A stretch of DNA of 60,293 bases, from IMG/VR virus record IMGVR_UViG_3300044796_000664, positions 1 to 60,293 of that record; one strand, written 5' to 3'. The stretch's first letter is position 1. Each line of letters starts with the position of its first letter. Source of the DNA: a virus (lineage: Duplodnaviria > Caudoviricetes). Below, piece by piece: positions 15,297-37,093 of this stretch. A program made the translations under genes and the position numbers. A model generated the notes under the pieces. That model made no database searches. It saw only the letters and a list, made by a program, of their open reading frames with translations, and was not told the DNA's origin.

Positions 15297-15887
15297 TCAG
15301 GCGGGGTCGAAGTCGGGCGCGGCGAAAGCGGCGAGGGCCAGGTCGGCCGGGAACTTGGCGGCCACCTCGGGCTTTTCGAGGAACTTGCGCGGGTTCGGGT
15401 GGCCCTGGTTGAGATAGGCCAGGGCGACATAGGCCGCCGCGGGGCTGGCGAAGCGCATGTCGCGGTGCTTGAGCATCTCGCTGAAAGGCCCGCGCGCCCG
15501 CTCGAACGGGTGATGCTGGATCAGGTTGAGCAGCAAATAGTGCTGCGCCCAGCCGGCGACGAACTCGCCGTGCTCGTGCGTCTGGGCGTTGTTGAACATC
15601 AGGGTCTTGACGATCGACTCGCAAATCGCGGTCGGGCCCCACTCCTCATGGGCGTAGATGTAGGCCTCGACCTCGGTCACATCGTCGTCGAGATGGGCGG
15701 CCAGGTAGTCGCTGACCGGGCAATGGCGGCGACCGATGACGGCGTTGGATTGGCGGTAGTCGTGCAGCAGCTCGGCGACGGTCGTATATTTCAGCCGCAC
15801 GGTCCACGGGTGCGCGCCGCCGTCCATGACGACCTCGGAAGGATGATCGACGCGTCGCATCAGGCCCTCGCGATGATCTGCAGACAC
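15297..15887 (-). CDS. Hypothetical protein
   Basis: 196-aa ORF with typical codon usage between tail tip and fibre genes. Confidence 0.65.
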   Translation of the reverse strand: MSADHREGLMRRVDHPSEVVMDGGAHPWTVRLKYTTVAELLHDYRQSNAVIGRRHCPVSDYLAAHLDDDVTEVEAYIYAHEEWGPTAICESIVKTLMFNNAQTHEHGEFVAGWAQHYLLLNLIQHHPFERARGPFSEMLKHRDMRFASPAAAYVALAYLNQGHPNPRKFLEKPEVAAKFPADLALAAFAAPDFDPA

Positions 15888-18800
15888 GCCCCGGCGCCGG
15901 GCTGGCTGGTGAATGAGCCGCCGGCGCCACCGCCGCCTGGGGACAGGCCGGGCTGGCTGTCGGTCGTCTGATCGACATAGGTCCCGGTGATGTCCGCCGC
16001 GCCGCCGCCATCCCAGGAGTCGACCAGGCCGCCCGCATGACCGGTGTAGGCGTGGGTCGCGCTCGCGCCGGTCGCGGTGGTGATGGTCGCCGACCCGCCT
16101 GGGGTCCCAGGGCCGCCGCTGGGCGCGTTGACCCCGCTGTTGGCGCTGATCGACAGGCCGGTCGCCGTCGCCGTCGCGGCTGAGCCGGTCGACCCCGGCA
16201 GGGTGTAGGTGATGGTCAGGCCAGGGCTGGCCGGGAAGCCCAGCACCACCGCCGCGCCCGCCGCCGAACCGCCATAGTCGGTGTAGGTCCAGCCGTCCTT
16301 CACGTCGCCGGTGACATAGCCCGACCCGGCCCCGCCGATCCCCGTCAAGACGATGTCGACGTGCGTATACGAACCCGCCGGCAGCACGAAGGTCTTGCCC
16401 GATCCGGACACCGAGTCATTGAGCAAGGTCGTCCCGGGACCACTGCCGCCGCTGCCGCCGCTGATGGTCCCCACCGTGATCGCGCTGGCGATGATCTCGC
16501 GGAAGGTGGGGACGCCGTTGACCAGATAGAGCACCGACACGTCGTAGGTCTGGCCGGACTGGACGGAGGTGATCTCCTTGCGGGTCGTGGTCGGGTTGCC
16601 CATTCCGCCGCTGGCCCAGATGCTGGTCCCCGTCACGCGATAGTCGAAGTCGATCGCCGTGGCGCTCGGATTGTCGCTGGCGCCGGTGATGACGATGGCG
16701 GGGATGGACTGGCCGGCGTTGCTCAGCACCGTCCCGACCGCCGTCCAGGCCGCGCTCGAAGGGGCCGCCGAGCCGATCTGGGTGGGGGTGATCGAGTAGA
16801 CCAGGCAGTCCGACAGGTCGACGATGCCCAGGCCCCAGAGATTGAAGCTCTGGAATTTGACGTAGACGACCTGGCCCGCGTTGGTGGCGAAGTAGGGGAA
16901 GTCGAAGATGGCGTCGTCCAACCGCACGAACAGCGCGCCGGCCGAGTGGGCGGCGACGCCGCTGTTGAGATATCCCCGCCGGATGCTGGTCCCCAGGCTA
17001 TAGCGGTTCGGGTTGGTCAGGGTGGCGGCCGTGAAACAGATCAGCTCGTCGTCGATCAGGCACAGTGTCCCGCCCGCGTCGGCGTCCGACGTGGAGCCCG
17101 CCGTCAGCTCGCCGCCAGATGCGCCCAGGTCCACCGCCAGGGTGTTCGTCGTGTCCGGGTCCGCGTGGCTGGCGAAGGAGGCCGTGGCGTAGCCGTAGCG
17201 CGCCGGCGCGTCGATCGTCCCGATCTGCTGATAGTTCGTCCCGTCCGTCGAGACCCAGACGTGAGCGCCGCCCCAGTTGGGGCCGCCCGCCACCGCCGCC
17301 CAGACCTGGCCGCCCGCAGCCAGCACCGATGGCGGGTTGAACAGGTAGGGCCCGGCGATCTCGGCGGCCGTGGCCGCGTGGGGCCGGCCGGGCAGGCCCT
17401 GATAGAGCTGTTGTTGCGAGACGTAGATCGCGTTCGACCCGTCGCCCGTCCAGACAAAATTGCCCGAAGCATCGAGAACGCTGATCGCCACAACCTCCGG
17501 GGCCGCGCTGGGAATGTTGATCGTCAGGCTCAACACCCAGATGCCGGCGACCAGGCTGGCGCTGACGCTCGCGGCAGTGACGGTCGCCGCGCCAATGACG
17601 ATCGGCCCAACGGTGATGATTCCGGCGTTCACATCGGCTTCGAAATAAGCCCCGTTAGCATGGGGGGCATCCATGACGCGAAACTCGACGAGCTTGTGCG
17701 CGCCCTGTTGGACGCAGGCCGTGTAGGTATAGTTGAGACCGGCGAAGGTATTGGTGAAGGTCTGGTAGACGGTGTGTTCGCCATTCACCGCGGTCGGAAC
17801 AATCGTAGCGGCCGTGGTCAATCCGTATTGGTCGGTGTGACTCGCGCCCGTGACGGTGGCATTGACCTTGGCCCATGCCGCGTTGGATGCGTCGCCTGAA
17901 TAGAGCAGCAGGTTCGCTTCCACCCCGCCCGGATCAACGCCCTGGTTGACGGCGTAACCGACGCCGGCCTGCATGGTGTAGAGCGGGGTCGCGGCGATGC
18001 CGATGGGGGCGTCTTCCGCCGTGACCTGAAGGCCGCCGGTCTCGTCCTCGTCGATCTGGATGATCCGCACCGGATAGGCGCTCAGCCCCAGGCCGGCATC
18101 CGTGATCTGCACGATGTCGCCGGGCTCCAGCAGGGCGAACGGCCAGGCCAGGGTGAACTTGTACTGGCCCCGGACGTAGAGCGTCCGCTGCAGGAAGAGC
18201 TGCGCCGAGATCGCCGCGACCGCGGAGGCGCAGATGCAATGCACCGTGTCCGGGTCTTTGCGCCGCATGCCGTACTGAGCGACGTTGGCGGCGTCGGAGG
18301 CCAGGGCGATGGCCATGTTGTACTGGTTGGAGCGGTCCAGATATTCGAGCTGGATCACGTTGTAGGCGTCGGACTGGTCCATGACGTCGACCAGGATCGG
18401 GGGACTGTCCTTCTCCACCACGAAGTGATCGTCCGTGAGCGAATAGACCGGGGTGACGTTGGGCGTGTAGGTCTTGCCGTTCCCCGTCAGGGCGGTGTCG
18501 CCATAGGCGATGAACTTCAGCACCCCTTCTGACCAGACGCAGGTGGAGTTGGTCGCCTTGAGCAGTTCGTTCAGGAAGTCCGAGGCGCTGCGCTGGGAAT
18601 CGATCACCGGCGAGACCAAGAGGCCCGCCGCGAGGCAGTAGTTCTGGTACTGCGTGAGCGAGCCCAGCAGGCCCGTGCCCCACGACGGGACGCCGTAGCG
18701 GGCGTTGGTGAAGAAGTCCGTCACCACCAGCGACGGGTCGGCGTCCGGCGTACCCCCCACCCCGAAACTGGCGGTGCGCACCACCTCGAAGCTGTGGTTT

Positions 18801-19234
18801 GGCGTGCCGGCCCCGGAATCGAGCGGGTAGTTCGAGGCGTAGACGATGGCCAGGCCCGAATAGCCGAGAGCGTGATCGGGATGGCTGCTGGTCAGATAGG
18901 ACCAGACCGACTGCCCCACCGCGCCCGTCGCCAGGGTCAGTCCGGAGCTCGCCAGGCTCTCGGTCTTGCTGTCGACCCAGACCTGCGAGATCGAGTCGAT
19001 CGGCCCCTCGCAGATCGCCAGGACCAGCGTCGCCGAATAGCTGTAGCCGGTGATGGTCGAACCGCCCTTGGCCGCCGCCTTCTGCGCCTTGGAGCCGAAG
19101 TCCAGATAGTCGACCAGGTTGCACTTGCAGCGGAACGTGCCCCAGCCGACCGGGACGTTGACCCCAAGCGAGGACGTCTGGACCTGGATCCCGGCGTAGC
19201 GGGTGATGACGTTCCCGGCCGATCTACCGCCCAT
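15860..19234 (-). CDS. Tail tip/host-specificity protein (Phage-tail_3 / J-like)
   Basis: VPVGWG, AICEGPI, YSGLA, PNHSFEV and LEPGD motifs; 1124 aa. Confidence 0.88.
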   Translation of the reverse strand: MGGRSAGNVITRYAGIQVQTSSLGVNVPVGWGTFRCKCNLVDYLDFGSKAQKAAAKGGSTITGYSYSATLVLAICEGPIDSISQVWVDSKTESLASSGLTLATGAVGQSVWSYLTSSHPDHALGYSGLAIVYASNYPLDSGAGTPNHSFEVVRTASFGVGGTPDADPSLVVTDFFTNARYGVPSWGTGLLGSLTQYQNYCLAAGLLVSPVIDSQRSASDFLNELLKATNSTCVWSEGVLKFIAYGDTALTGNGKTYTPNVTPVYSLTDDHFVVEKDSPPILVDVMDQSDAYNVIQLEYLDRSNQYNMAIALASDAANVAQYGMRRKDPDTVHCICASAVAAISAQLFLQRTLYVRGQYKFTLAWPFALLEPGDIVQITDAGLGLSAYPVRIIQIDEDETGGLQVTAEDAPIGIAATPLYTMQAGVGYAVNQGVDPGGVEANLLLYSGDASNAAWAKVNATVTGASHTDQYGLTTAATIVPTAVNGEHTVYQTFTNTFAGLNYTYTACVQQGAHKLVEFRVMDAPHANGAYFEADVNAGIITVGPIVIGAATVTAASVSASLVAGIWVLSLTINIPSAAPEVVAISVLDASGNFVWTGDGSNAIYVSQQQLYQGLPGRPHAATAAEIAGPYLFNPPSVLAAGGQVWAAVAGGPNWGGAHVWVSTDGTNYQQIGTIDAPARYGYATASFASHADPDTTNTLAVDLGASGGELTAGSTSDADAGGTLCLIDDELICFTAATLTNPNRYSLGTSIRRGYLNSGVAAHSAGALFVRLDDAIFDFPYFATNAGQVVYVKFQSFNLWGLGIVDLSDCLVYSITPTQIGSAAPSSAAWTAVGTVLSNAGQSIPAIVITGASDNPSATAIDFDYRVTGTSIWASGGMGNPTTTRKEITSVQSGQTYDVSVLYLVNGVPTFREIIASAITVGTISGGSGGSGPGTTLLNDSVSGSGKTFVLPAGSYTHVDIVLTGIGGAGSGYVTGDVKDGWTYTDYGGSAAGAAVVLGFPASPGLTITYTLPGSTGSAATATATGLSISANSGVNAPSGGPGTPGGSATITTATGASATHAYTGHAGGLVDSWDGGGAADITGTYVDQTTDSQPGLSPGGGGAGGSFTSQPGAGACLQIIARA

Positions 19235-19676
19235 CGCGCTTCCTCCAGAACGAGAAGAAGCGCCGCGGCCGATCGATCAGCTGGGCGTCACGGTCCAGGT
19301 CGCCGAGGGTCACGCATCCGTCCTGCCGCACCGCATGCACCACCACGCCAGGCTCGACGAGGATGGCGCCGTGAGAGAAGGCCCGGCCGAACTTGAACAG
19401 GATCAGATCGCCTGGCTGGACTTCCTCGGCGGTGATCTCGGCCGCCAGGCGCAGCACGATGCCGGCATAGCGCTCCTCCTCGCGGTGGAGGTGCCAGTCG
19501 GAGGGATAGTCGCCGGTGTCGAACTTCTCAATCAGACCCACCGAAGACCAGACGCCGATCGGCAGCTGCGCGCAGTCGACGCCGACGCCCTTGATGCAGG
19601 CGCGGTGGTGGTAGGGCGTGCCGAGCCAGGCTCGGGCCTCAGCGATCACCAGGGCGCGCTCTTCGGTCTCGCTCAT
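19224..19676 (-). CDS. NlpC/P60 tail-associated peptidase
   Basis: ARAWLGTPYHH...GVDCAQL...PGDLILF...SHGAI. Confidence 0.88.
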   Translation of the reverse strand: MSETEERALVIAEARAWLGTPYHHRACIKGVGVDCAQLPIGVWSSVGLIEKFDTGDYPSDWHLHREEERYAGIVLRLAAEITAEEVQPGDLILFKFGRAFSHGAILVEPGVVVHAVRQDGCVTLGDLDRDAQLIDRPRRFFSFWRKRDGR

Positions 19677-20562
19677 CAGCCGACAGCCCCCGTGATGGCC
19701 GGCGGCGTGAACGGCTGGCCGCGGAAGTGGATCAGGTTCGATTGCGCCAGGCAGTCGGCCATGGTGAGCAGGCACCCCCGCACGGCGTGGAAGCTGTCGC
19801 CGTTGGCCGGCGCGAAGGGCAGCGGGAAGGCCACGGTGATCGCGCCGGAGGCGTTGAGATAGCTCGCCACCGCCCGGCTGAGACCTGAGTTGTTCCCGGA
19901 GGTGAAGGTGATCGTGCCCTTGTCGAAATAGTGGTCGGCGTTGGTCAGGCTGGTGTGGAAGCCCAGCGTGGTCGCGCCGGCCGAGACCGTGCCCGAGACG
20001 TTGCTGGGCGAGAGGCCGCAGGCGCCGTCATAGTGGCTGTTGAGGCAGCCGGCCTGGAACACGTCCGGCCCCATGTTCACGTTCAGCAGCACCGTCCAGG
20101 CGCTCACGGTCATGGTGAAGCCGGAGCGTGACACGTCCTTGAGCGAGGTCACCCGGCCAGAGAAGGCGATCACCGCCCCGACAATGGTGTAGGGCAGCGC
20201 CCAGCTCGCCAGGAAGGCGCGGTAGAGCTTGACGGTGGCCCCATCGAACCCACGCCCCTGAGCGAACGGGATCAGCGCCGCGCCGTTGATCAGATCGGCG
20301 CTGTTCGCCGCGATGCGGACATCGAGCGTCGCGACTTCGACGCCGAGCTTGGTGCTGATCTTGCCGCGCTCGATGCCGGGCCCGGCCAGATAGGTGTTCC
20401 CGTTGAACGTCAGCGGGGCGCTCATGCCCGCGCCGTGCCAGCGCACCACCGTGCCGCCGTTGAGCGTGATCTCCCACAGATCGGCCATCTGGAAGTCCGC
20501 GCCGCCGTTGAGCAGGGCGAGCGTCGCGCCGGGCGTGCCGTTGTCGATCGGCGTCTTGCTCA
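19676..20562 (-). CDS. Baseplate hub protein (DUF2163/BR0599-like)
   Basis: C-terminal CLNSHYDGAC...GCLLTMADC...N...FRGQPF. Confidence 0.85.
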
Positions 20563-21225
20563 TGGACGGATGCTCGTGAACTTGAGCGACTTGCCCGACC
20601 ACAACAGCTGCACGATCTGATCGAAGGTCAGGTCGTCCTGCAGGAAGCGGCAGCCGAAGTAGAAATAGCCGTACCAGGTCAGCGCATGGCCGCTGGTGGG
20701 CGCGGTGGTGAAGGTCAGCAGGCCGTTGGGCGCGATGGTGTATGCCCCGGCCGCCCCGCCGTTGTCCCGGATCGTCGGGCTATAGACGTCGTACACCGGC
20801 TCGGAGAAGCTGTTCATCTGGCGAGCAAGCTGGAAGGTCTTGGTCGAGCCGTCGCCGGTTCCAAAGCTGGCCGGCGCCGAGGAGAGCACCTGGCAGTCGG
20901 ATGGATCGACGAACAGGAAGGGCGCGAACTGGCCCTGCAGGACGTTGAAGAACTCCCACATGGTGGCGAGTTCGGCGGTCGTGGGCTGGTGGCGGATCAC
21001 CGCGTACTTGAGCTCGAACTGCCACAGGGGCGACGGCCAATAGGCGGTGCGCCGCTCGCGGCCCGAGGCCATGCGCTTGACCTCCGTCGACCACAGCGGG
21101 GCCTTGCTGACCTCCGGCGTCTGCCCCGGCAGGAAGGGCAACACCGGCAGGCCTTGCGTGCCGCTCCAGATGCCCGAGGGCAGCGACGAGAGGGCCGCAG
21201 GCGGGACGTAGGGGGTGATCGCCAA
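20560..21225 (-). CDS. Distal tail protein (DUF2460-like)
   Basis: SGRERR, FFNVLQGQ..PFLF.DP, GDGSTKTFQL, CRF..D. Confidence 0.85.
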   Translation of the reverse strand: MAITPYVPPAALSSLPSGIWSGTQGLPVLPFLPGQTPEVSKAPLWSTEVKRMASGRERRTAYWPSPLWQFELKYAVIRHQPTTAELATMWEFFNVLQGQFAPFLFVDPSDCQVLSSAPASFGTGDGSTKTFQLARQMNSFSEPVYDVYSPTIRDNGGAAGAYTIAPNGLLTFTTAPTSGHALTWYGYFYFGCRFLQDDLTFDQIVQLLWSGKSLKFTSIRP

Positions 21226-21694: not shown

Positions 21695-24388
21695 TCAGCC
21701 CGCCCTGAACGGGCTGGCTTCATTCGAGCGCCAGCCGCCCCGCGCCGCCGCATGAACGGCGTTCGCCACATGGGTGGCGTGGTCCTTCAACGCCTTCCTG
21801 AACTCGGCGGGCGACATTCCAGAGGGCCCTCCATGGACGTTGAAGTCGCCGAAGTTGAAGACGTGGCCACCGCCGCCGCCGGAGCCGAAGCCACCTCCCC
21901 GAGCAGCGAGAGCCATCAGATCCCGATTATCGCCGGCGGGGATGACCCGCTCGCCCGCGTGGATCTGGGCGATCATGTCATTGGGGACGTAGTTCGTGCC
22001 GACGTCGAGTGAGGCCAAGGCCCCATAGGCCAGCGCCGCCTCCGACATGGCCGCGCCGAAGGCGGGCGCGCCCAGGTCCAACGGGAAAGGCGCGGCTGCC
22101 ATTGATGCTACCCCTCCAGCGCCGGCAAGCCCCGCCATGGTCGATACCTGGGTGATCGCCAGGGCTTTCTGAGTGGCCGCCGCCGTCGCCGAGGCGGTCG
22201 CGTCGCTCGCCACCTTCTGCGTATTGAACAGCGCATGGATGGAAGCCATCACGGTGTGTTCCATCAGCCATTTCGACACCATCCCCGCGACGGTGTTGAC
22301 GAAGCTGCCGAGCATCTTCTGCCCGATTCCCGCCATGACCTGACCGAAGTTCTTGGCTCCCTCGGCCATCTGAAGCAGTCCCTGGCCGAAGTCCTGCACC
22401 AAGGGCGTGATGGTCTTGTCCCACTGCGCCTTGACCTGCTGAGCGGCCTGCTGTTCGGCGCTGAGGATTTTCTTGTCCGCCGCGGCGTTGGCCGCGACCT
22501 TGGCCGCCTCCATCTGGGCGAAGGCGTCTGTTTCGTCCTTAAGGGCGGCGTTGATTTGGGCGGCCGTGGCCTCTCCGGAACTGATGATCTTTCGATCGGC
22601 CAGGGTCCGGTCGGCATAGATCTGGTCCGCCGCCTCGATGGCGGCCTGGCGCTCCTGTTCGTAGAGCGCCTTCTTCTGGACGAACGCCTGCCGGGCGCTG
22701 ATCACCCCTTCCTTTTCCGCCCGATCGACGGCGGCGACCTGTTCCTCGAGCGAGTCCTGCCTAGCCTTGGCCGCGGTTTCGTCCGCCTTCACCGCGGCAT
22801 CGGACGTGCGCTTGTAGCCGGCAAAGAGGTCGTTGAAGAATGCTTGCGCGGCCCTCCGGCCGTCCGCCAGGAACTTGTCGAAGCCGGCGAGGGCCTTGTC
22901 GCTCCCGCCCAGACTCAGGCCGCCGCCGGCGCCGGAACCAGCGCCTTTCTTGCCCGCATCGGCGCCGGTCGTGCCGGTCCCTTCCTTAGGCAGGGGCGCG
23001 CCCTGAGCTTGGCTCCAGAGCTTCTTTTCCCATGCCAGATAGGCGCTGGCGTCACTGTCGGCCGACAGCCATTCATCCTGGCCCTGCTTCCAGGCCGCCG
23101 CCGCGTCCGCGCCCATCCGCTTGGCGGTGTCCACCACATCGGCCGCGACCCGCTGCGCGCCGGACGTGATGTCGCCCTCGATGGCTCCCCAATTCAGCGT
23201 AAGCGCGTCCCTGGTCACGTCGCCGAAGGTCCTGAAGGCGTCTCCCATCGTCTTGCAGCCGCCGACGACGAGATCGATCAGCGGATCCAGTACGGCATTA
23301 ACCCCCCAGATCGCGCCGTCGATCGTCTTGAACACGAAGTCGACGATCAGCCCGAGGAAGGCGAACAAGTCGGCCAGCGCCTTCACGGCCGTGCCGAGGG
23401 CGTCCATCTGATCCTTGGCCGCGCCGCCCTCCTTGTAGGACTGCACGAAGGCCCCGGTCATGTCGTTGAGGCCAGAGGTGACGTCCTTGAAGGCCGGCGC
23501 CAGGGTGTCCGTCAGGACGTTCCCCAGGCCCATCATGGCGACCTTGTTTTCCTTCTGAGCCTCCGCCAGCGCGATCCCTTTGGACGCGGCCTCCTGGTTG
23601 ACCGCGCCGTACTTTTCGATCTCGTCGTTGGCCTCGGCGATCTGCTCCTTGGTCAGGCCCAGCAGCGGGCCGATTTCCTGGATATTGCGGCCGAACATGG
23701 CCATCGCGGCGGCGATCTTGGCGGGCCCGGCCTCCATGTTCGCCAAGCCCGCAAGGGCCGCACTCAGCAGCTGCGTCTGCGTATAGGCGCCATTGACGTC
23801 GATTCCGGCGGCCTTGAAGGCGTTGGCCGCCTGGGCGCTTCCTTGCTTGGCCGCCGCGAAGCTACGGTCGACCCGCATCATGGCGGTCGATAGCGCATCC
23901 CCAGACACGCCGAACAGGGTGGCCTGGGCGTTCATCTTCTGGACTTCGCCGACGGTCAGCCCGAAGGTCTCGGCGGTCTTGAGCGACTTTTCCGCCGTTT
24001 CGCCCAGTTTGGACGCAAACTCGGCCAGTTCCCTGACCGCGAAGGCCGCGGCAATGGCCTGGCCAAGACCGGCGACGCTCTCGCGCAGGGCGCTGATCTG
24101 CTCGACGTCAGCCTTGAGTCCGGCGAACGGCGAGCTGCCCTTGCTGTCCGCCGCCAGCTTCTTCATCTCGACGTCGAGCGCGGCGATCTGGGCGCGAGCC
24201 TTGACCGTCGCCTCGGCGGCCTTCTGCATTTCCGCGCGCAGTTCGTCGGTCATGCCGCTGGTGCGGGCGGTCTTGGCGAAGCTGTTCAGATCCGCCGTGG
24301 CGGCCTTCAACTCCGACGACAGGACGGCGCGCTTCGACACCAGGTCGGCGACGTCGGCGGTGATGCTGACCGAGATCGAGTTCGCCAT
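21695..24388 (-). CDS. Tape measure protein
   Basis: 897-aa Ala-rich helical protein; C-terminal GTNYVPNDMIAQIHAGERVIP; position. Confidence 0.9.
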   Translation of the reverse strand: MANSISVSITADVADLVSKRAVLSSELKAATADLNSFAKTARTSGMTDELRAEMQKAAEATVKARAQIAALDVEMKKLAADSKGSSPFAGLKADVEQISALRESVAGLGQAIAAAFAVRELAEFASKLGETAEKSLKTAETFGLTVGEVQKMNAQATLFGVSGDALSTAMMRVDRSFAAAKQGSAQAANAFKAAGIDVNGAYTQTQLLSAALAGLANMEAGPAKIAAAMAMFGRNIQEIGPLLGLTKEQIAEANDEIEKYGAVNQEAASKGIALAEAQKENKVAMMGLGNVLTDTLAPAFKDVTSGLNDMTGAFVQSYKEGGAAKDQMDALGTAVKALADLFAFLGLIVDFVFKTIDGAIWGVNAVLDPLIDLVVGGCKTMGDAFRTFGDVTRDALTLNWGAIEGDITSGAQRVAADVVDTAKRMGADAAAAWKQGQDEWLSADSDASAYLAWEKKLWSQAQGAPLPKEGTGTTGADAGKKGAGSGAGGGLSLGGSDKALAGFDKFLADGRRAAQAFFNDLFAGYKRTSDAAVKADETAAKARQDSLEEQVAAVDRAEKEGVISARQAFVQKKALYEQERQAAIEAADQIYADRTLADRKIISSGEATAAQINAALKDETDAFAQMEAAKVAANAAADKKILSAEQQAAQQVKAQWDKTITPLVQDFGQGLLQMAEGAKNFGQVMAGIGQKMLGSFVNTVAGMVSKWLMEHTVMASIHALFNTQKVASDATASATAAATQKALAITQVSTMAGLAGAGGVASMAAAPFPLDLGAPAFGAAMSEAALAYGALASLDVGTNYVPNDMIAQIHAGERVIPAGDNRDLMALAARGGGFGSGGGGGHVFNFGDFNVHGGPSGMSPAEFRKALKDHATHVANAVHAAARGGWRSNEASPFRAG

Positions 24389-24406
24389 TCTCGGCTCCTA
24401 AAGTGT

Positions 24407-24432
24407 GAAGGGCGGCCCGAAGACCGCCCTTC
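24407..24432 (-). terminator. Hairpin closing the pentamer array transcript
   Basis: GAAGGGCGG-TCTTCGGG-CCGCCCTTC. Confidence 0.65.
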
Positions 24433-24434
24433 TT

Positions 24435-24572
24435 CAGCCTAGCGCTGCCGCGCCACGCCTCGCCGCGCCGTGCCATGACGAGCCATGGCCTGCCATGCGT
24501 TGCCTTGCCTGCCGCACCTGGCCTGGCCTCGCGCCGCCGTGCCAAGCCATGCCTTGTCTTGCCTCGCCTGCC
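24435..24572 (-). ncRNA. Putative guide-RNA array: two GGCA-initiated runs of 11 and 15 GGC-NN pentamers
   Basis: Strict 5-nt periodicity over 138 nt (4+55+4+75); flanked by hairpins; directly downstream of the RAMP operon. Confidence 0.8.
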
Positions 24573-24602
24573 ATGTTTTTCCCGGTTGAGGACGGGAAGA
24601 GC

Positions 24603-25085
24603 CTAGTCGGCGGCCTCAGGAGGGCCTTGGTCGATCATCGAGAAGACGCGACCGAGCTCGACTAGCTCCGCGTGACGTTGCCGCCACGCCTCCAACTCGG
24701 CCCAGGCCCTGGCGATGACCTGGCGCCGAAGTTCAATGCTGCTCATGGCGGTGGCGACCGAGGCGTATCCCCGCTCGCCGCCGCTCTCAACGCTGACATA
24801 GGCCCGGATCGGCTTGGCCGGCTCGACGTTCGAGCGGCTGATGTCGATGGTCAGGCTGCGGACCAGTTCGCGGGCCTGATCCTTGCGGTACTCGCCGGCG
24901 GCGACGGAATCGTCCCATTCGAAGTGACCGTGCAGCGCCGACGCCGCGTTCTTCGCGGACACCACGATCGTCTCGGGCTCCAGCAGCCCGTTGTGCCGCT
25001 TCTCCAGCCGCGCAAGCGCCTCGCCGGCCTTCTGAGCGTCTAGCTCGACCCGCGAGCCGGGACGCCAGCCATATCTCACCGGCAT
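24603..25085 (-). CDS. RAMP-associated partner protein (160 aa)
   Basis: LHGHFEWDDSVAAGEYRKDQARELVRS; overlaps the RAMP gene end. Confidence 0.8.
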   Translation of the reverse strand: MPVRYGWRPGSRVELDAQKAGEALARLEKRHNGLLEPETIVVSAKNAASALHGHFEWDDSVAAGEYRKDQARELVRSLTIDISRSNVEPAKPIRAYVSVESGGERGYASVATAMSSIELRRQVIARAWAELEAWRQRHAELVELGRVFSMIDQGPPEAAD

Positions 25086-25723
25086 GGCATCGCCTCCCCG
25101 GTGCGGGCGACGTGGAAGCGACCGGAGACACCGTCCTTTTCGGGCCTCCATTCGCCGACGCCGACGCCGAAGCCGCCGGCCTCGAACAGGCTCAGCACCT
25201 GCTCGGCGGAAAGGACGTTGGCGTTGAACTGCACCCGGAGGATCGCGCCCCAGGGCTTGAACTCGCCGCGGTGGCGGATGTCCGCCGTCCCCATGCCAAC
25301 GCGAACCATGTCCTCGCGCATCGCCGGCGGCGGACCGAGGATTTCGACCATCTCGTCGGCGATGTGGAAGCACTGGCGCGCCAGGACCTTAGTCAGGCTG
25401 CCGATGGTGGTGACAGCGGTGATTGCCGAAGCCTTGAACGCCACGGCCGGGAAGCCGAAGCGGCCGTTCTCGACGTCGTCCTCCGTCGGCCTGTCGGGCA
25501 GACCGTCGAGCCAGTAGAGGCTTTCGCAGAAGTCCTGCCACGGGTCCTTGGCGGTCTTACCGGCCGTGGCCTTCTTCATCTGTTTGGCTAGCATCTGCTC
25601 GCGCGCCTTGCGGCTCCAGGCGTGAACGATAAGGGGACCATCGCCGATGATCGGAACCTCGACCGTCTGGATATTCAGCGGCGGAAGCTCAATGGATGTG
25701 GTGGCGGATTTCGCGGCCATCAC
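25076..25723 (-). CDS. Stand-alone Cas7-like RAMP-superfamily protein
   Basis: beta1 VEVPIIGDGPLIVH; FGFPAVAFKASA resembles the Cas7/Csm3 iPgsslKG motif; C-terminal Gly-loop GGFGVGVGEWRPEKDGVSGRF. Confidence 0.75.
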   Translation of the reverse strand: MMAAKSATTSIELPPLNIQTVEVPIIGDGPLIVHAWSRKAREQMLAKQMKKATAGKTAKDPWQDFCESLYWLDGLPDRPTEDDVENGRFGFPAVAFKASAITAVTTIGSLTKVLARQCFHIADEMVEILGPPPAMREDMVRVGMGTADIRHRGEFKPWGAILRVQFNANVLSAEQVLSLFEAGGFGVGVGEWRPEKDGVSGRFHVARTGEAMPCR

Positions 25724-26178
25724 CCCGTCACTCCGAGCCGGCGGCGCGCCTCAGGCCACTCGTCCGGCATGCGTCGCCAGTCGGCGCCGAGTTCGCTTGC
25801 CGGAACGCCGGTGGACTGCTCGAGCAACTCCAGCATCGCGCTGGTTACCCGCGCATAGCGGCGGCGTTGGCGACCGTATTCGGGCTCGTCGGGCTCGAGC
25901 TGGCACAGGTCGTCGGCGATGCCCGAAAGCACGATCACCCCGACCATGATCCCCACCAGGCTCTTCGGCGTCGAGAATGAAATCGTCTCATCGATGGCGC
26001 GCAGACGGTCAACAATCTCGTTTTCCACCCGACGGAGGCGGAGGTACTCGTTGCTATCCTCTCTGAGCGATCGACGGGCCAATTCGATCTCGTTTTGCGC
26101 GCGGTCGACGGCGGAATACTCATGGCCGGCTTTTTCAAACGGACAGTCGGCGCTAGACTGCGGGGCAGCTTCGGCCAT
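25720..26178 (-). CDS. Hypothetical protein, first gene of the RAMP cassette
   Basis: AAGGAG RBS; 152 aa; GTGA overlap with the RAMP gene. Confidence 0.65.
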   Translation of the reverse strand: MAEAAPQSSADCPFEKAGHEYSAVDRAQNEIELARRSLREDSNEYLRLRRVENEIVDRLRAIDETISFSTPKSLVGIMVGVIVLSGIADDLCQLEPDEPEYGRQRRRYARVTSAMLELLEQSTGVPASELGADWRRMPDEWPEARRRLGVTG

Positions 26179-36588: not shown

Positions 36589-36825
36589 TCAGGCGTTCAG
36601 CCGGGCCGCGACGATGTCGAGGTCCATCGGCTCGTTGACGATCAGGAAGCGATCACGCACCGCGACCGGCAGGGATGACGCGAGACGATCGCGCAGGCCC
36701 TCGCAGGCCTGCAGACTCCATTCGCCTTGCTTGGGGCGCACGATCAGCACCTCGCCCGGCTTCAGCTCGAGGCGCGTGATCTCGGCGCAGATCGCGGAGG
36801 CTTGGGCGGCGGTCATGGTTGCCAA
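36589..36825 (-). CDS. Small hypothetical protein
   Basis: 78-aa ORF in the late operon. Confidence 0.55.
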   Translation of the reverse strand: MATMTAAQASAICAEITRLELKPGEVLIVRPKQGEWSLQACEGLRDRLASSLPVAVRDRFLIVNEPMDLDIVAARLNA

Positions 36826-36829
36826 TCCC

Positions 36830-37093
36830 TCAGCCGCGACGCGCTAAGTTTCGCACCCAATCGGCGTCTGGTTCGAAGGTCATCGTCTGGAAGCGCTGGC
36901 CGGCTCTATTGCTCTGCACCGTGACGACGGCATGAACTTCCACCGGCATGACAGGCACGTCCTGACCACGAATCTCGAACACGATCTCCCGCCGGGCCCA
37001 GTCAGTGCGCGCGCCGACAATGTGAACTGGATTGGGCGCAAACCCGAAGACGAGGTCTTCGACGATCTCTATGGACATGCGGACATCGGCCAT
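36830..37093 (-). CDS. Small hypothetical protein
   Basis: MADVRMSIEIVEDL...; GGGAG RBS. Confidence 0.55.
   Translation of the reverse strand: MADVRMSIEIVEDLVFGFAPNPVHIVGARTDWARREIVFEIRGQDVPVMPVEVHAVVTVQSNRAGQRFQTMTFEPDADWVRNLARRG

What the first reader, a model, noticed from the sequence alone, without database searches (positions are those of the whole stretch)
24514..24572. Array segment 1 decodes to a gapped match in the tape-measure gene (NN = codon positions 1-2)
The NN series GA AA AA AT TT AC GG GA CA CA GC, read as NN-x triplets, aligns to TMP 22477-22445 (minus strand) GAC AAG AAA ATC CTC AGC GCC GAA CAG CAG GCC (DKKILSAEQQA). Eight of 11 dinucleotides are exact and 19/22 nt match, with three single mismatches clustered centrally. 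The decoded version is a plausible homologue (D/E-K-K-I-L-T-G-E-Q-Q-A). The guide has the same sense as the mRNA, so it would pair with the DNA template strand. This points to dsDNA recognition that skips every third (wobble) base.
Basis: partly seen in the sequence, partly recalled or inferred. Interest (0 to 1): 0.95.

Follow-up and report, generated by a model that had tools for sequence, protein, structure and literature searches.

The report
VIPR guide-RNA array aimed at tape-measure genes

Summary
The 11 variable dinucleotides of segment 1 (24514-24572, minus strand), read as NNx, match the window's own tape-measure gene at 22477-22445 in frame, at 19 of 22 bases. Only 11 of 60,000 permutations of the series reach that score in the window.

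The decoding also holds elsewhere. 36 related loci carry such arrays. In a pool of these loci, 4 of 94 segments find a target with at most 1 mismatch, against 0.07 expected. Only the one-base-skip rule gives such hits.

The gene two places upstream (25076-25723) folds as a Cas7/Csm3-like RAMP. The next gene (24603-25085) looks like a winged-helix protein. The array follows it directly.

This is the anatomy and code of VIPR systems, described in three bioRxiv preprints of 2026: a Vipr RAMP filament on GGY/NN vrRNAs that binds dsDNA with a one-nucleotide skip and silences competing phages. The window matches their "staggered array" form.

Segment 2 matches the tape-measure start of another phage at 22 of 24 bases, but the window's own at only 17 of 24. 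Another phage's guide matches the window's tape-measure start at 17 of 18.

The 86% self match of segment 1 is most likely a diverged self copy of a rival's target. True self-regulation is not excluded.

Verdict: a new member of a known kind.

The parts
25076..25723 (-). vipr candidate: 215-aa RAMP (Cas7/Csm3-like) protein, phrog_4652
   Evidence: ORF; phrog_4652 with no Pfam family. AlphaFold2 on 33 sequences gave pLDDT 86.5 and pTM 0.81. Top Foldseek hits are Csm3/Cas7 of type III and VII CRISPR complexes (E 7e-5, prob 1.00; 21 hits at E<=0.001). VIA-align best is Csm3 at Z 9.5, rmsd 3.9, 148 aligned, and the list is almost entirely CRISPR RAMPs. A homolog lies directly upstream of the P0001 homolog in 34 of 35 other loci. 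A glycine-rich stretch has invariant G184 F185 G188 W192 R193.
24603..25085 (-). vap candidate (P0001): 160-aa protein with a winged-helix-like domain and a long C-terminal helix, phrog_15946
   Evidence: AlphaFold2 gave pLDDT 77.6. Foldseek found nothing at E<=0.001. VIA-align gave only Z 5-6.2, to winged-helix nucleic-acid binders such as Z-alpha, SelB, FoxP and MarR/BlaI types, so the fold call is weak. In all 36 loci analysed the array follows this gene's stop codon.
24579..24598 (-). leader hairpin (TTCCCG ... CGGGAA) just before the array, followed by AAAAACAT (24573-24580)
   Evidence: Sequence. In 30 loci RNAalifold predicts 5 pairs at this place, and every pair has sequences where both sides changed and pairing is kept; for example, pair 19-38 has 14 such sequences. 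The motif GAAAC(A/G)N then GGCAGGC is conserved.
24435..24572 (-). whole GG(C/T)NN array: 28 units forming two staggered vrRNA guides plus a conserved 3' end
   Evidence: It is the only such array in the window; the next best chain scores 9.2 against 43.9.
24514..24572 (-). vrRNA segment 1 (the finding): GGCA (24569-24572) plus 11 units (24514-24568)
   Evidence: It matches the window's own TMP at 19 of 22 bases.
24450..24513 (-). vrRNA segment 2: GGCA (24510-24513) plus 12 guide units, NN = AA AA AT AG AT TC AT AC GC GA GT GC
   Evidence: It matches codons 3-14 (NNVSVSITADVA) of the tape-measure gene of IMG/VR locus L034 at 22 of 24 bases. The window's own counterpart matches at 17 of 24.
24435..24449 (-). 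last three units (GGCAG CGCTA GGCTG): conserved array end, not part of the guide
   Evidence: The match of segment 2 stops after unit 12. Many arrays end in ..CGC(A/T)A GGC...
24410..24429 (-). GC-rich hairpin GGGCGG-tcttcggg-CCGCCC closing the array; possible 3' cap or terminator
   Evidence: A like hairpin follows the array in most loci. The consensus terminator scan did not call it, because it lacks a T-run.
21695..24388 (-). tape-measure protein gene (897 aa)
   Evidence: PHROG tape-measure families phrog_8125 and phrog_2854. It sits in a GTA/phiJL001-like tail module.
22445..22477 (-). self site matched by segment 1 (DKKILSAEQQA), 19 of 22 bases
24347..24382 (-). tape-measure codons 3-14: the window's counterpart of segment 2's foreign target, and the target of another phage's guide
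   Evidence: Segment 2 scores 17 of 24 here. Segment 1 of the array in locus L029 matches 24350-24376 at 17 of 18.

Best explanation
The region 24410-25723 (minus strand) is a VIPR locus (Viral Interference Programmable Repeat). It comprises a small RAMP protein (Vipr, 25076-25723), an accessory nucleic-acid-binding protein (Vap candidate, 24603-25085), and a "staggered" array of two vrRNA guides (24435-24572) that sits between a leader hairpin and a closing hairpin.

The mechanism, taken from the published structures and inferred for this locus, is as follows. Vipr protomers polymerise along the RNA, one per five-base repeat. Each buries the GGY bases and presents the two N bases. These pair with two bases of one DNA strand while every third target base is flipped out. 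The result is an R-loop that blocks transcription. Because the skipped base falls on the codon wobble position, synonymous changes do not let a target escape.

Segment 1 is one such guide, and it is directed at a tape-measure-gene sequence. Segment 2 is directed at the first codons of the tape-measure gene of related phages. My reading (about 0.6) is that segment 1's real prey is the tape-measure gene of a rival phage not yet in the databases. On that reading, the window's own copy is spared by three central mismatches.

Shown here: the anatomy, the RAMP fold, the code, and the foreign targets. Inferred: expression, filament formation and silencing.
For: Array and linkage
- All 36 non-redundant loci with a P0001 homolog carry a GG(C/T)NN array right after its stop codon, whatever gene follows.
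- 1,143 units were parsed: 1,036 of 5 nt, 98 GGCA, 8 other four-base units and one of 6 nt. The consensus is G 93%, G 87%, C 77% / T 20%, N, N.
- 53 of 70 internal segments have 9-11 units. 39 of 52 GGCAGGC spacings are 49, 54 or 59 nt.

Code
- Window segment 1 has p about 1.8e-4.
- In the own-locus test, 11 of 94 segments have p<0.01.
- In the pool, 4 of 94 segments have at most 1 mismatch, against 0.07 expected (maximum 1 in 60 permutation rounds). 21 have at most 3 mismatches, against 10.1 expected.
- With a local score, 7 segments reach 15 or more against 0.2 expected, and 17 reach 13 or more against 3.8 expected.
- Only the 1-nt skip works.
- The L023 guide hits DYEACFYRT in the vipr genes of 6 other loci at 17 of 18 bases, with differing wobble bases. 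Its own copy scores 14 of 18.
- L047 and L050 target each other, at 23 of 24 and 19 of 20.

Window-specific
- Segment 2 matches the L034 tape-measure start at 22 of 24 and the window's own at 17 of 24.
- An L029 guide matches the window's tape-measure start at 17 of 18.

Proteins
- The Vipr candidate is a RAMP.
- The Vap candidate is winged-helix-like, on weak evidence.

Literature
- VIPR is defined by a Vipr RAMP, vap genes, vrRNAs of 9-16 YNNGG repeats, the 1-nt skip at wobble positions, targets on both strands, no PAM, repression of competing phages, staggered arrays with a 1-nt overlap, and WH-like Vaps (10.64898/2026.04.26.720920: Results, Discussion and two methods sections read).
- The filament and R-loop triplex are described in 10.64898/2026.04.26.720927 (abstract and first part of Results read).
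- Self scores lower than non-self scores are reported in 10.64898/2026.10.15.759431 (abstract and passages read).
Against: - There is no evidence that the array is transcribed or processed. The one RNA library that holds parts of this region gave no contig over the array, and the consensus scans found 0 promoters and 0 terminators in 24250-26000.
- Segment 1's best match is a self match of 86%. The first VIPR preprint reports no self hit at 80% or more in its sets.
- No better non-self target was found. The exact pattern and a relaxed 19-base pattern each gave 0 hits in IMG/VR. The only tape-measure homolog of that region, P0123, reads DKKILAQEASA, which fits worse.
- The Vap fold assignment rests on Z of only 5-6.
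- Sequence homology to the published SUSP1 Vipr was not tested. tblastn against isolated phages found only 27 Mycobacterium and 5 Gordonia phages.
- The VIPR type could not be assigned, because figures and supplements were not visible.
- Internal vrRNAs here have no separate 3' tail, unlike the type II vrRNAs that were characterised.
Confidence: 0.9

Rival explanations
1. Segment 1 is a true self-directed guide. The phage uses VIPR to damp or time transcription of its own tape-measure and late tail genes, or to keep them silent in lysogeny, through a tolerated 19 of 22 match.
For: - The self match is 86%, above the 80% threshold the VIPR authors use to call natural targets.
- It is the only self hit among the 17 best pooled hits.
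- No better non-self target exists in IMG/VR.
- The VIPR module sits directly upstream of the tape-measure gene.
Against: - In the L047 case a self match of 83% coexists with a 96% match in a rival. For L023, self scores 14 of 18 against 17 of 18 in rivals.
- Segment 2 clearly prefers a foreign tape-measure gene over the window's own.
- The preprints report that perturbing NN pairing abolishes silencing, and that self scores are kept below non-self scores to avoid autoimmunity.
- The three mismatches are adjacent and central.
Confidence: 0.15
2. The array is a VIPR array, but the particular 19 of 22 match of segment 1 to the tape-measure gene is a chance hit. The real target lies elsewhere and is unsampled.
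For: - The hypothesis was framed after looking at the data.
- 11 of 60,000 permutations reach 19.
- Among 94 segments tested, some low p values are expected by chance.
- The tape-measure region is Ala/Gln/Lys-rich.
Against: - p is about 1.8e-4 before correction and about 1e-3 after. The permutations keep composition.
- The next best site in the window scores below 16.
- Both guides of this array, and a rival's guide, point at tape-measure genes.
Confidence: 0.1
3. The array is not a guide at all. It could be the 46-aa ORF 24434-24574, a slippage-prone simple repeat, or a DNA site array for the winged-helix protein.
For: - All six frames are open across the array, and an ATG-started 46-aa ORF exists.
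- P0001 looks like a nucleic-acid binder.
Against: - Related arrays contain stop codons in varying frames and differ by whole 5-nt units, so no reading frame is conserved.
- TA units are frequent (72 of 1,036).
- NN varies while GGY is fixed.
- The NN series decode to foreign genes far beyond chance.
Confidence: 0.02

Closest known systems
VIPR systems with staggered vrRNA arrays (bioRxiv 10.64898/2026.04.26.720920, fig. S18 legend read; figure not visible)
   Same: - The repeats alternate GGY and NN.
- Guides of about 9-12 units follow one another, with the end of one marking the start of the next. Here that is the GGCA four-base unit, which amounts to a one-base overlap of two five-base registers.
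- A small RAMP gene and an accessory gene sit beside the array.
- The element is encoded by a phage.
- Targets lie in coding sequence with the wobble base skipped.
   Different: - I could not see which of the seven types has staggered arrays, or whether this clade (peat and soil phages, a cyanophage, actinophages) is among the 667 classified systems.
- Here the array has a covarying leader hairpin and one closing hairpin.
- One guide has an 86% self match, whereas the authors report no self hits at 80% or more in their sets.
Type II VIPR of Escherichia phage SUSP1 and a Pseudomonas fulva prophage (the same preprint, plus 10.64898/2026.04.26.720927 and 10.64898/2026.10.15.759431)
   Same: - The code is the same (NNx, either strand, no PAM); no flanking motif was found here either.
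- The vipr-vap-array order is the same.
- Some guides target rivals' vipr genes.
- Self scores are lower than non-self scores.
- W192-R193 in a glycine-rich loop resembles the published G-loop residues D177-W178-R179. This is an inference: the two sequences were not aligned.
   Different: - SUSP1 vrRNAs are separate transcripts of about 100 nt, each with its own pseudoknot tail. Here the guides abut without tails.
- Targets there are a satellite's recombinase and prophage regulators. Here they are tape-measure genes, vipr/vap genes and other structural genes of related phages.
- tblastn detected no sequence similarity to SUSP1.
Class 1 CRISPR effector backbones (Cas7/Csm3/Cmr4 filaments on crRNA)
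   Same: - The RAMP fold.
- One protomer per RNA repeat length, with periodic base flipping by a thumb, as stated in the preprints.
   Different: - There is no CRISPR repeat-spacer array and no cas gene set. Tandem Repeats Finder shows only this 5-nt array and short chance repeats.
- The period is 5 nt of guide to 3 nt of target, with 2 bases paired, instead of 6 with 5 paired.
- No adaptation genes are present.
Homing endonucleases that tolerate wobble-position variation in their target (recalled; no call)
   Same: A selfish or competitive element recognises a conserved coding sequence in phase with its codons.
   Different: Recognition there is by protein alone and ends in cleavage and homing. 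Here the specificity is written in RNA, and the published outcome is repression.

Membership tests
VIPR system | A small Vipr protein of the RAMP fold (RRM core, glycine-rich loop, thumb) encoded at the locus | tested here: met
   The product of 25076-25723 has pLDDT 86.5. Foldseek's best hits are Csm3/Cas7 at E 7e-5 and prob 1.00. VIA-align gives Z 9.5 to Csm3, and nearly all of the 50 rows are CRISPR RAMPs. The glycine-rich stretch is invariant.
VIPR system | vrRNA region of tandem pentanucleotide repeats with conserved GGY and hypervariable NN, 9-16 repeats per guide | tested here: met
   The window has 11 and 12(+3) units. Across 36 arrays the consensus is G 93%, G 87%, C/T 97%, with N4 and N5 variable. 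53 of 70 internal segments have 9-11 units.
VIPR system | NN dinucleotides specify targets by the 1-nt skip rule, with the skip base at codon wobble positions | tested here: met
   Top hits lie in frame 0 of long ORFs, and wobble bases differ among targets.
VIPR system | Targets on either DNA strand, with no PAM-like flank | tested here: met
   6 of the 17 best hits are on the minus strand. The upstream codon starts with GC in only 4 of 13 hits, against 21% GCN codons in the tape-measure gene.
VIPR system | An accessory vap gene predicted to interact with DNA | tested here: inconclusive
   A conserved gene lies between vipr and the array. Its winged-helix likeness rests on Z 5-6.2 only, and Foldseek found nothing at E<=0.001.
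VIPR system | vrRNAs expressed as small RNAs that co-purify with Vipr | not testable with these tools
   Only contigs of public runs were available.
VIPR system | A conserved structured 3' tail capping the repeat tract | tested here: inconclusive
   A conserved end motif and a GC hairpin follow the last guide. The first guide has no tail of its own, which fits the staggered form described only in a figure legend.
VIPR system | Sequence or phylogenetic placement among published Vipr proteins (type I-VII) | not tested
   Published Vipr sequences and supplements were not in hand. tblastn against the isolated phages found 32 actinophage records and no Escherichia phage.
CRISPR-Cas (class 1) | A CRISPR array of direct repeats of about 25-40 nt separated by unique spacers, with cas genes | tested here: not met
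   None of the 60 Tandem Repeats Finder rows is such an array. The neighbours are tail genes.

The most novel reading that the evidence does not exclude
Segment 1 is a working self-directed guide. This phage would then use its VIPR machine not only against rivals but also to throttle or time its own tape-measure and late tail operon through a tolerated 19 of 22 match. That would be an autoregulatory use of VIPR not reported so far.
Probability: 0.12. Interest if true: 0.6.

Novelty: new member of a known kind. Interest (0 to 1): 0.35.

Why it matters
That code was first reported in preprints of April-October 2026. This window adds a member from an environmental phage with the staggered array form.

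The work here also gives an independent computational replication of the one-base-skip rule, in a clade far from the E. coli and Pseudomonas systems that were tested. It shows rival phages aiming guides at each other's tape-measure and vipr genes while their own copies carry mismatches.

It also suggests that many annotated "hypothetical proteins" in actinophages are Vipr/Vap genes, and that at least one annotated small ORF is really a guide array.

The one open point of wider interest is whether an 86% self match is tolerated, avoided or used.

Tried and rejected
**Readings considered and dropped**
- Tail-assembly-chaperone frameshift. I first read the ORF upstream of the tape-measure gene as a G/GT-type chaperone and the array as its frameshift extension. 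The -1 frame is open only from 24615 and no slippery site fits. Homologs of the ORF sit in non-structural regions of actinophages.
- Coding small ORF, TRAP-like RNA site array, G-quadruplex, rut site and centromere-like DNA repeats. All were dropped once the NN series decoded to foreign genes.
- PAM-like GCN codon 5' of targets. It looked promising in 4 of 5 first cases, but held in only 4 of 13 cases against a 21% background.

**Searches that found nothing**
- Rfam had no family for the region. The best row was E 0.36, far under its gathering score.
- Exact IMG/VR scans with the decoded pattern of segment 1, a relaxed 19-base version, and the 12-unit pattern of segment 2 each gave 0 hits. The window's own record may be left out of that collection.
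- Tape-measure homologs of residues 540-760: none in IMG/VR by peptide patterns and one at 44% identity in the protein collection.

**Expression**
- One metatranscriptome run holds a 91-base piece inside the vap gene (24677-24767) and 24300-24335. It gave no contig over the array. Contigs cannot show absence, and DNA can be present in RNA libraries. The consensus promoter and terminator scans found nothing.

- Supplements of the papers are closed. Their data S3/S4 and tables S2/S3 may list this clade, its type and its targets.
- Figures were not visible.

**Rows left out of the counts**
- L001-L004 are the same contigs as L033-L036.
- L005 has an array but was not parsed.
- L006 and L007 have the array upstream, not downstream.
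- L012 is cut by the contig end after 6 units.
- L015, L027, L032, L036, L038, L043-L046, L048 and L052 have downstream sequence identical to a kept locus.
- Segments of fewer than 8 units were not tested (fewer than 9).

Full report
**What is there.** On the minus strand, between the stop codon of a 160-aa ORF (24603-25085) and the start of the 897-aa tape-measure gene (21695-24388), lies a run of 28 short units (24435-24572). It reads GGCA, then 11 units of GG(C/T)NN, then GGCA, then 15 further units. A GC-rich hairpin (24410-24429) and the tape-measure ribosome-binding site follow. Tandem Repeats Finder sees the run as period-5 arrays. The finding's coordinates (24514-24572) cover the first GGCA and its 11 units.

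**The observation.** The 11 NN dinucleotides, read as NNx, align in frame to 22477-22445 of the tape-measure gene (DKKILSAEQQA). 19 of 22 bases match and 8 of 11 dinucleotides are exact. The three single mismatches fall in units 5-7. No other site in the window scores 16 or more. Of 60,000 permutations of the series, 11 reach 19. The match is therefore real and unlikely by chance, at about 1e-3 after allowing for two segments and a few possible gap rules.

**The array belongs to the upstream genes, not to the tape-measure gene.**
- The 160-aa protein (P0001, phrog_15946, no Pfam family) has 168 relatives in the protein collection. Nearly all are called hypothetical.
- I fetched loci encoding relatives from IMG/VR, JGI metagenomes and GTDB genomes.
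- In all 36 non-redundant loci analysed, a GG(C/T)NN array starts 18-83 bases after the stop codon, whatever gene follows. Only three loci have a tape-measure gene there.
- A cyanophage (Cy-LDV1 g33, 35% identity) has the same arrangement.
- 1,143 units were parsed: 1,036 of five bases, 98 GGCA, 8 other four-base units and one of six bases. Composition is G 93%, G 87%, C 77% / T 20%, then two variable bases.
- GGCA units divide the arrays into segments, and 53 of 70 internal segments have 9-11 units.
- A hairpin with compensatory changes precedes the array. A conserved end motif and a GC hairpin follow it.

**The decoding generalises.**
- I decoded every segment of 8 units or more (94 in all) as NNx and searched its own locus. 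11 segments had a permutation p<0.01, where about 1 is expected.
- Searching the pool of all 36 loci (587 kb), 4 segments had a site with at most 1 mismatch, against 0.07 expected. 21 had at most 3 mismatches, against 10.1 expected. With a local score, 7 reach 15 or more against 0.2 expected.
- The hits are telling. One guide of L023 matches DYEACFYRT in the gene two places upstream of the array in six other phages at 17 of 18 bases. The wobble bases differ from phage to phage, and its own copy (DYEQSFYRT) matches at only 14 of 18. L047 and L050 target each other, at 23 of 24 and 19 of 20. One guide matches the antisense strand, again with the gap on the wobble base.
- As a control, gap rules of 0, 2 and 3 bases gave 0, 1 and 1 guides at 85% identity or more, against 14 of 87 for the one-base gap. 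Reversing the unit order gave 4.
- No flanking motif stood out.

**The window's second guide.** Its first 12 units match codons 3-14 of the tape-measure gene of IMG/VR locus L034 at 22 of 24 bases (92%). The window's own tape-measure start matches at 17 of 24. The last three units belong to the conserved array end. Conversely, a guide of locus L029 matches the window's tape-measure start at 17 of 18. Both guides of this phage thus point at tape-measure genes, and rivals point back.

**The proteins.**
- The gene upstream of P0001 (25076-25723, 215 aa, phrog_4652) is present directly upstream in 34 of 35 other loci.
- Its model (pLDDT 86.5) matches CRISPR RAMPs. Foldseek's best hits are Csm3/Cas7 of type III and VII complexes (E 7e-5, prob 1.00). 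VIA-align gives Z 9.5 to Csm3, and the list consists almost wholly of Cas7, Cas5 and Cas6 proteins.
- P0001 models as a winged-helix-like domain followed by a 40-residue helix. The structural matches are weak, at Z 5-6.2, and Foldseek found nothing significant.

**What it is.**
- A literature search found that this system was described in 2026 as VIPR, Viral Interference Programmable Repeat.
- From bioRxiv 10.64898/2026.04.26.720920 (also PMC13142463) I read the Results, the Discussion and two methods sections. It reports phage-encoded loci with a small RAMP protein (Vipr, about 20 kD), accessory vap genes (some winged-helix-like), and vrRNAs of 9-16 YNNGG repeats. The NN bases specify dsDNA targets by a one-nucleotide skip that falls on the wobble position. 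Targets lie on either strand and need no PAM. The outcome is transcriptional repression of competing phages and satellites. The preprint describes seven types, among them staggered arrays whose vrRNAs overlap by one base.
- From 10.64898/2026.04.26.720927 I read the abstract and the first part of the Results. It shows one Vipr protomer per repeat in a helical filament. The GGY bases are buried, NN pairs with two target bases, and the third target base is flipped out, inside an R-loop "triplex".
- From 10.64898/2026.10.15.759431 I read the abstract and passages. It shows guides aimed at rivals' vipr genes, and self scores kept below non-self scores.
- The window meets the defining features I could test: RAMP gene, GGY/NN array, one-base-skip targets in frame, both strands, no PAM. 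Its GGCA junctions fit the staggered form. Expression and RNP formation could not be tested, and the type could not be assigned.

**The self match.**
- By the authors' threshold of 80% or more NN match, segment 1's 86% hit on its own tape-measure gene counts as a target. They found no such self hits in their sets.
- In my pool it is the only self hit among the 17 best. Three other segments have self matches of 82-85% within 10 kb. For one of these (L047) a rival carries a 96% site.
- No better non-self site for segment 1 exists in IMG/VR. The only homolog of that tape-measure region fits worse.
- I therefore read the self site as a diverged copy of a rival's target, spared by three adjacent mismatches (about 0.6). 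Self-regulation is about 0.15 and chance about 0.1.

**Verdict.** The kind of system is already in print, so this is a new member of a known kind. It comes with a useful independent replication of the code in a distant clade and one open question, the self match.

Noticed in passing
L007:1024-1274 (Mycobacterium phage Gorge, NC_051664.1 about 36764-37014): A 51-unit GGCNN array lies upstream of the vipr homolog and covers the annotated 54-aa 'gene 53' (L007:1062-1226), which is therefore probably a guide array and not a protein gene. Annotated gp54 (405 aa) joins the vipr-like and vap-like parts through a stretch that looks out of frame; tblastn aligns the vipr part in 2 pieces. 27 Mycobacterium and 5 Gordonia phage records carry vipr homologs annotated as hypothetical.
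   Followed up: partly
L006:2558-3168 (IMG/VR contig): A distant vap homolog (36% identity) has a 125-unit array upstream of it rather than downstream.
   Followed up: no
L008:2531-2691 (Cyanophage Cy-LDV1, BK059895.1): A 33-unit array follows the vap homolog g33 and precedes a putative excisionase. No vipr homolog was detected at E<=1e-5 by tblastn, so g34 upstream may be a divergent one.
   Followed up: no
window 24573-24598 and the same place in 29 other loci: A hairpin with compensatory base changes lies just before the array, and the vap stop codon often sits in or beside its loop. It is followed by the conserved GAAAC(A/G)N and then GGCAGGC. It could be a processing or assembly start signal.
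   Followed up: partly
L023, L020, L009, L011 guides against the vipr/vap genes of other loci: Several guides target the vipr or vap genes of related phages, for example DYEACFYRT in vipr. The carrier's own vipr differs at exactly two codons inside the site.
   Followed up: partly
L047 and L050: Two related phages carry guides against each other, at 23 of 24 and 19 of 20. The target genes were not identified.
   Followed up: no
window 22479-22507: A 12-base tandem repeat (2.4 copies) in the tape-measure gene directly abuts the self site of segment 1.
   Followed up: no
window 15860-21225: The tail module is of the gene-transfer-agent / phiJL001 type (DUF2460, Gp84_N, BR0599, Phage-tail_3, Rcc01698_C). 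The VIPR module is inserted between upstream structural genes and the tape-measure gene, where a tail assembly chaperone would be expected.
   Followed up: no
window 24300-24335 and 24677-24767: Read-sized contigs of one peat metatranscriptome run match these two pieces (tape-measure 5' part and vap) without differences. This is weak evidence, and DNA carry-over is not excluded.
   Followed up: partly
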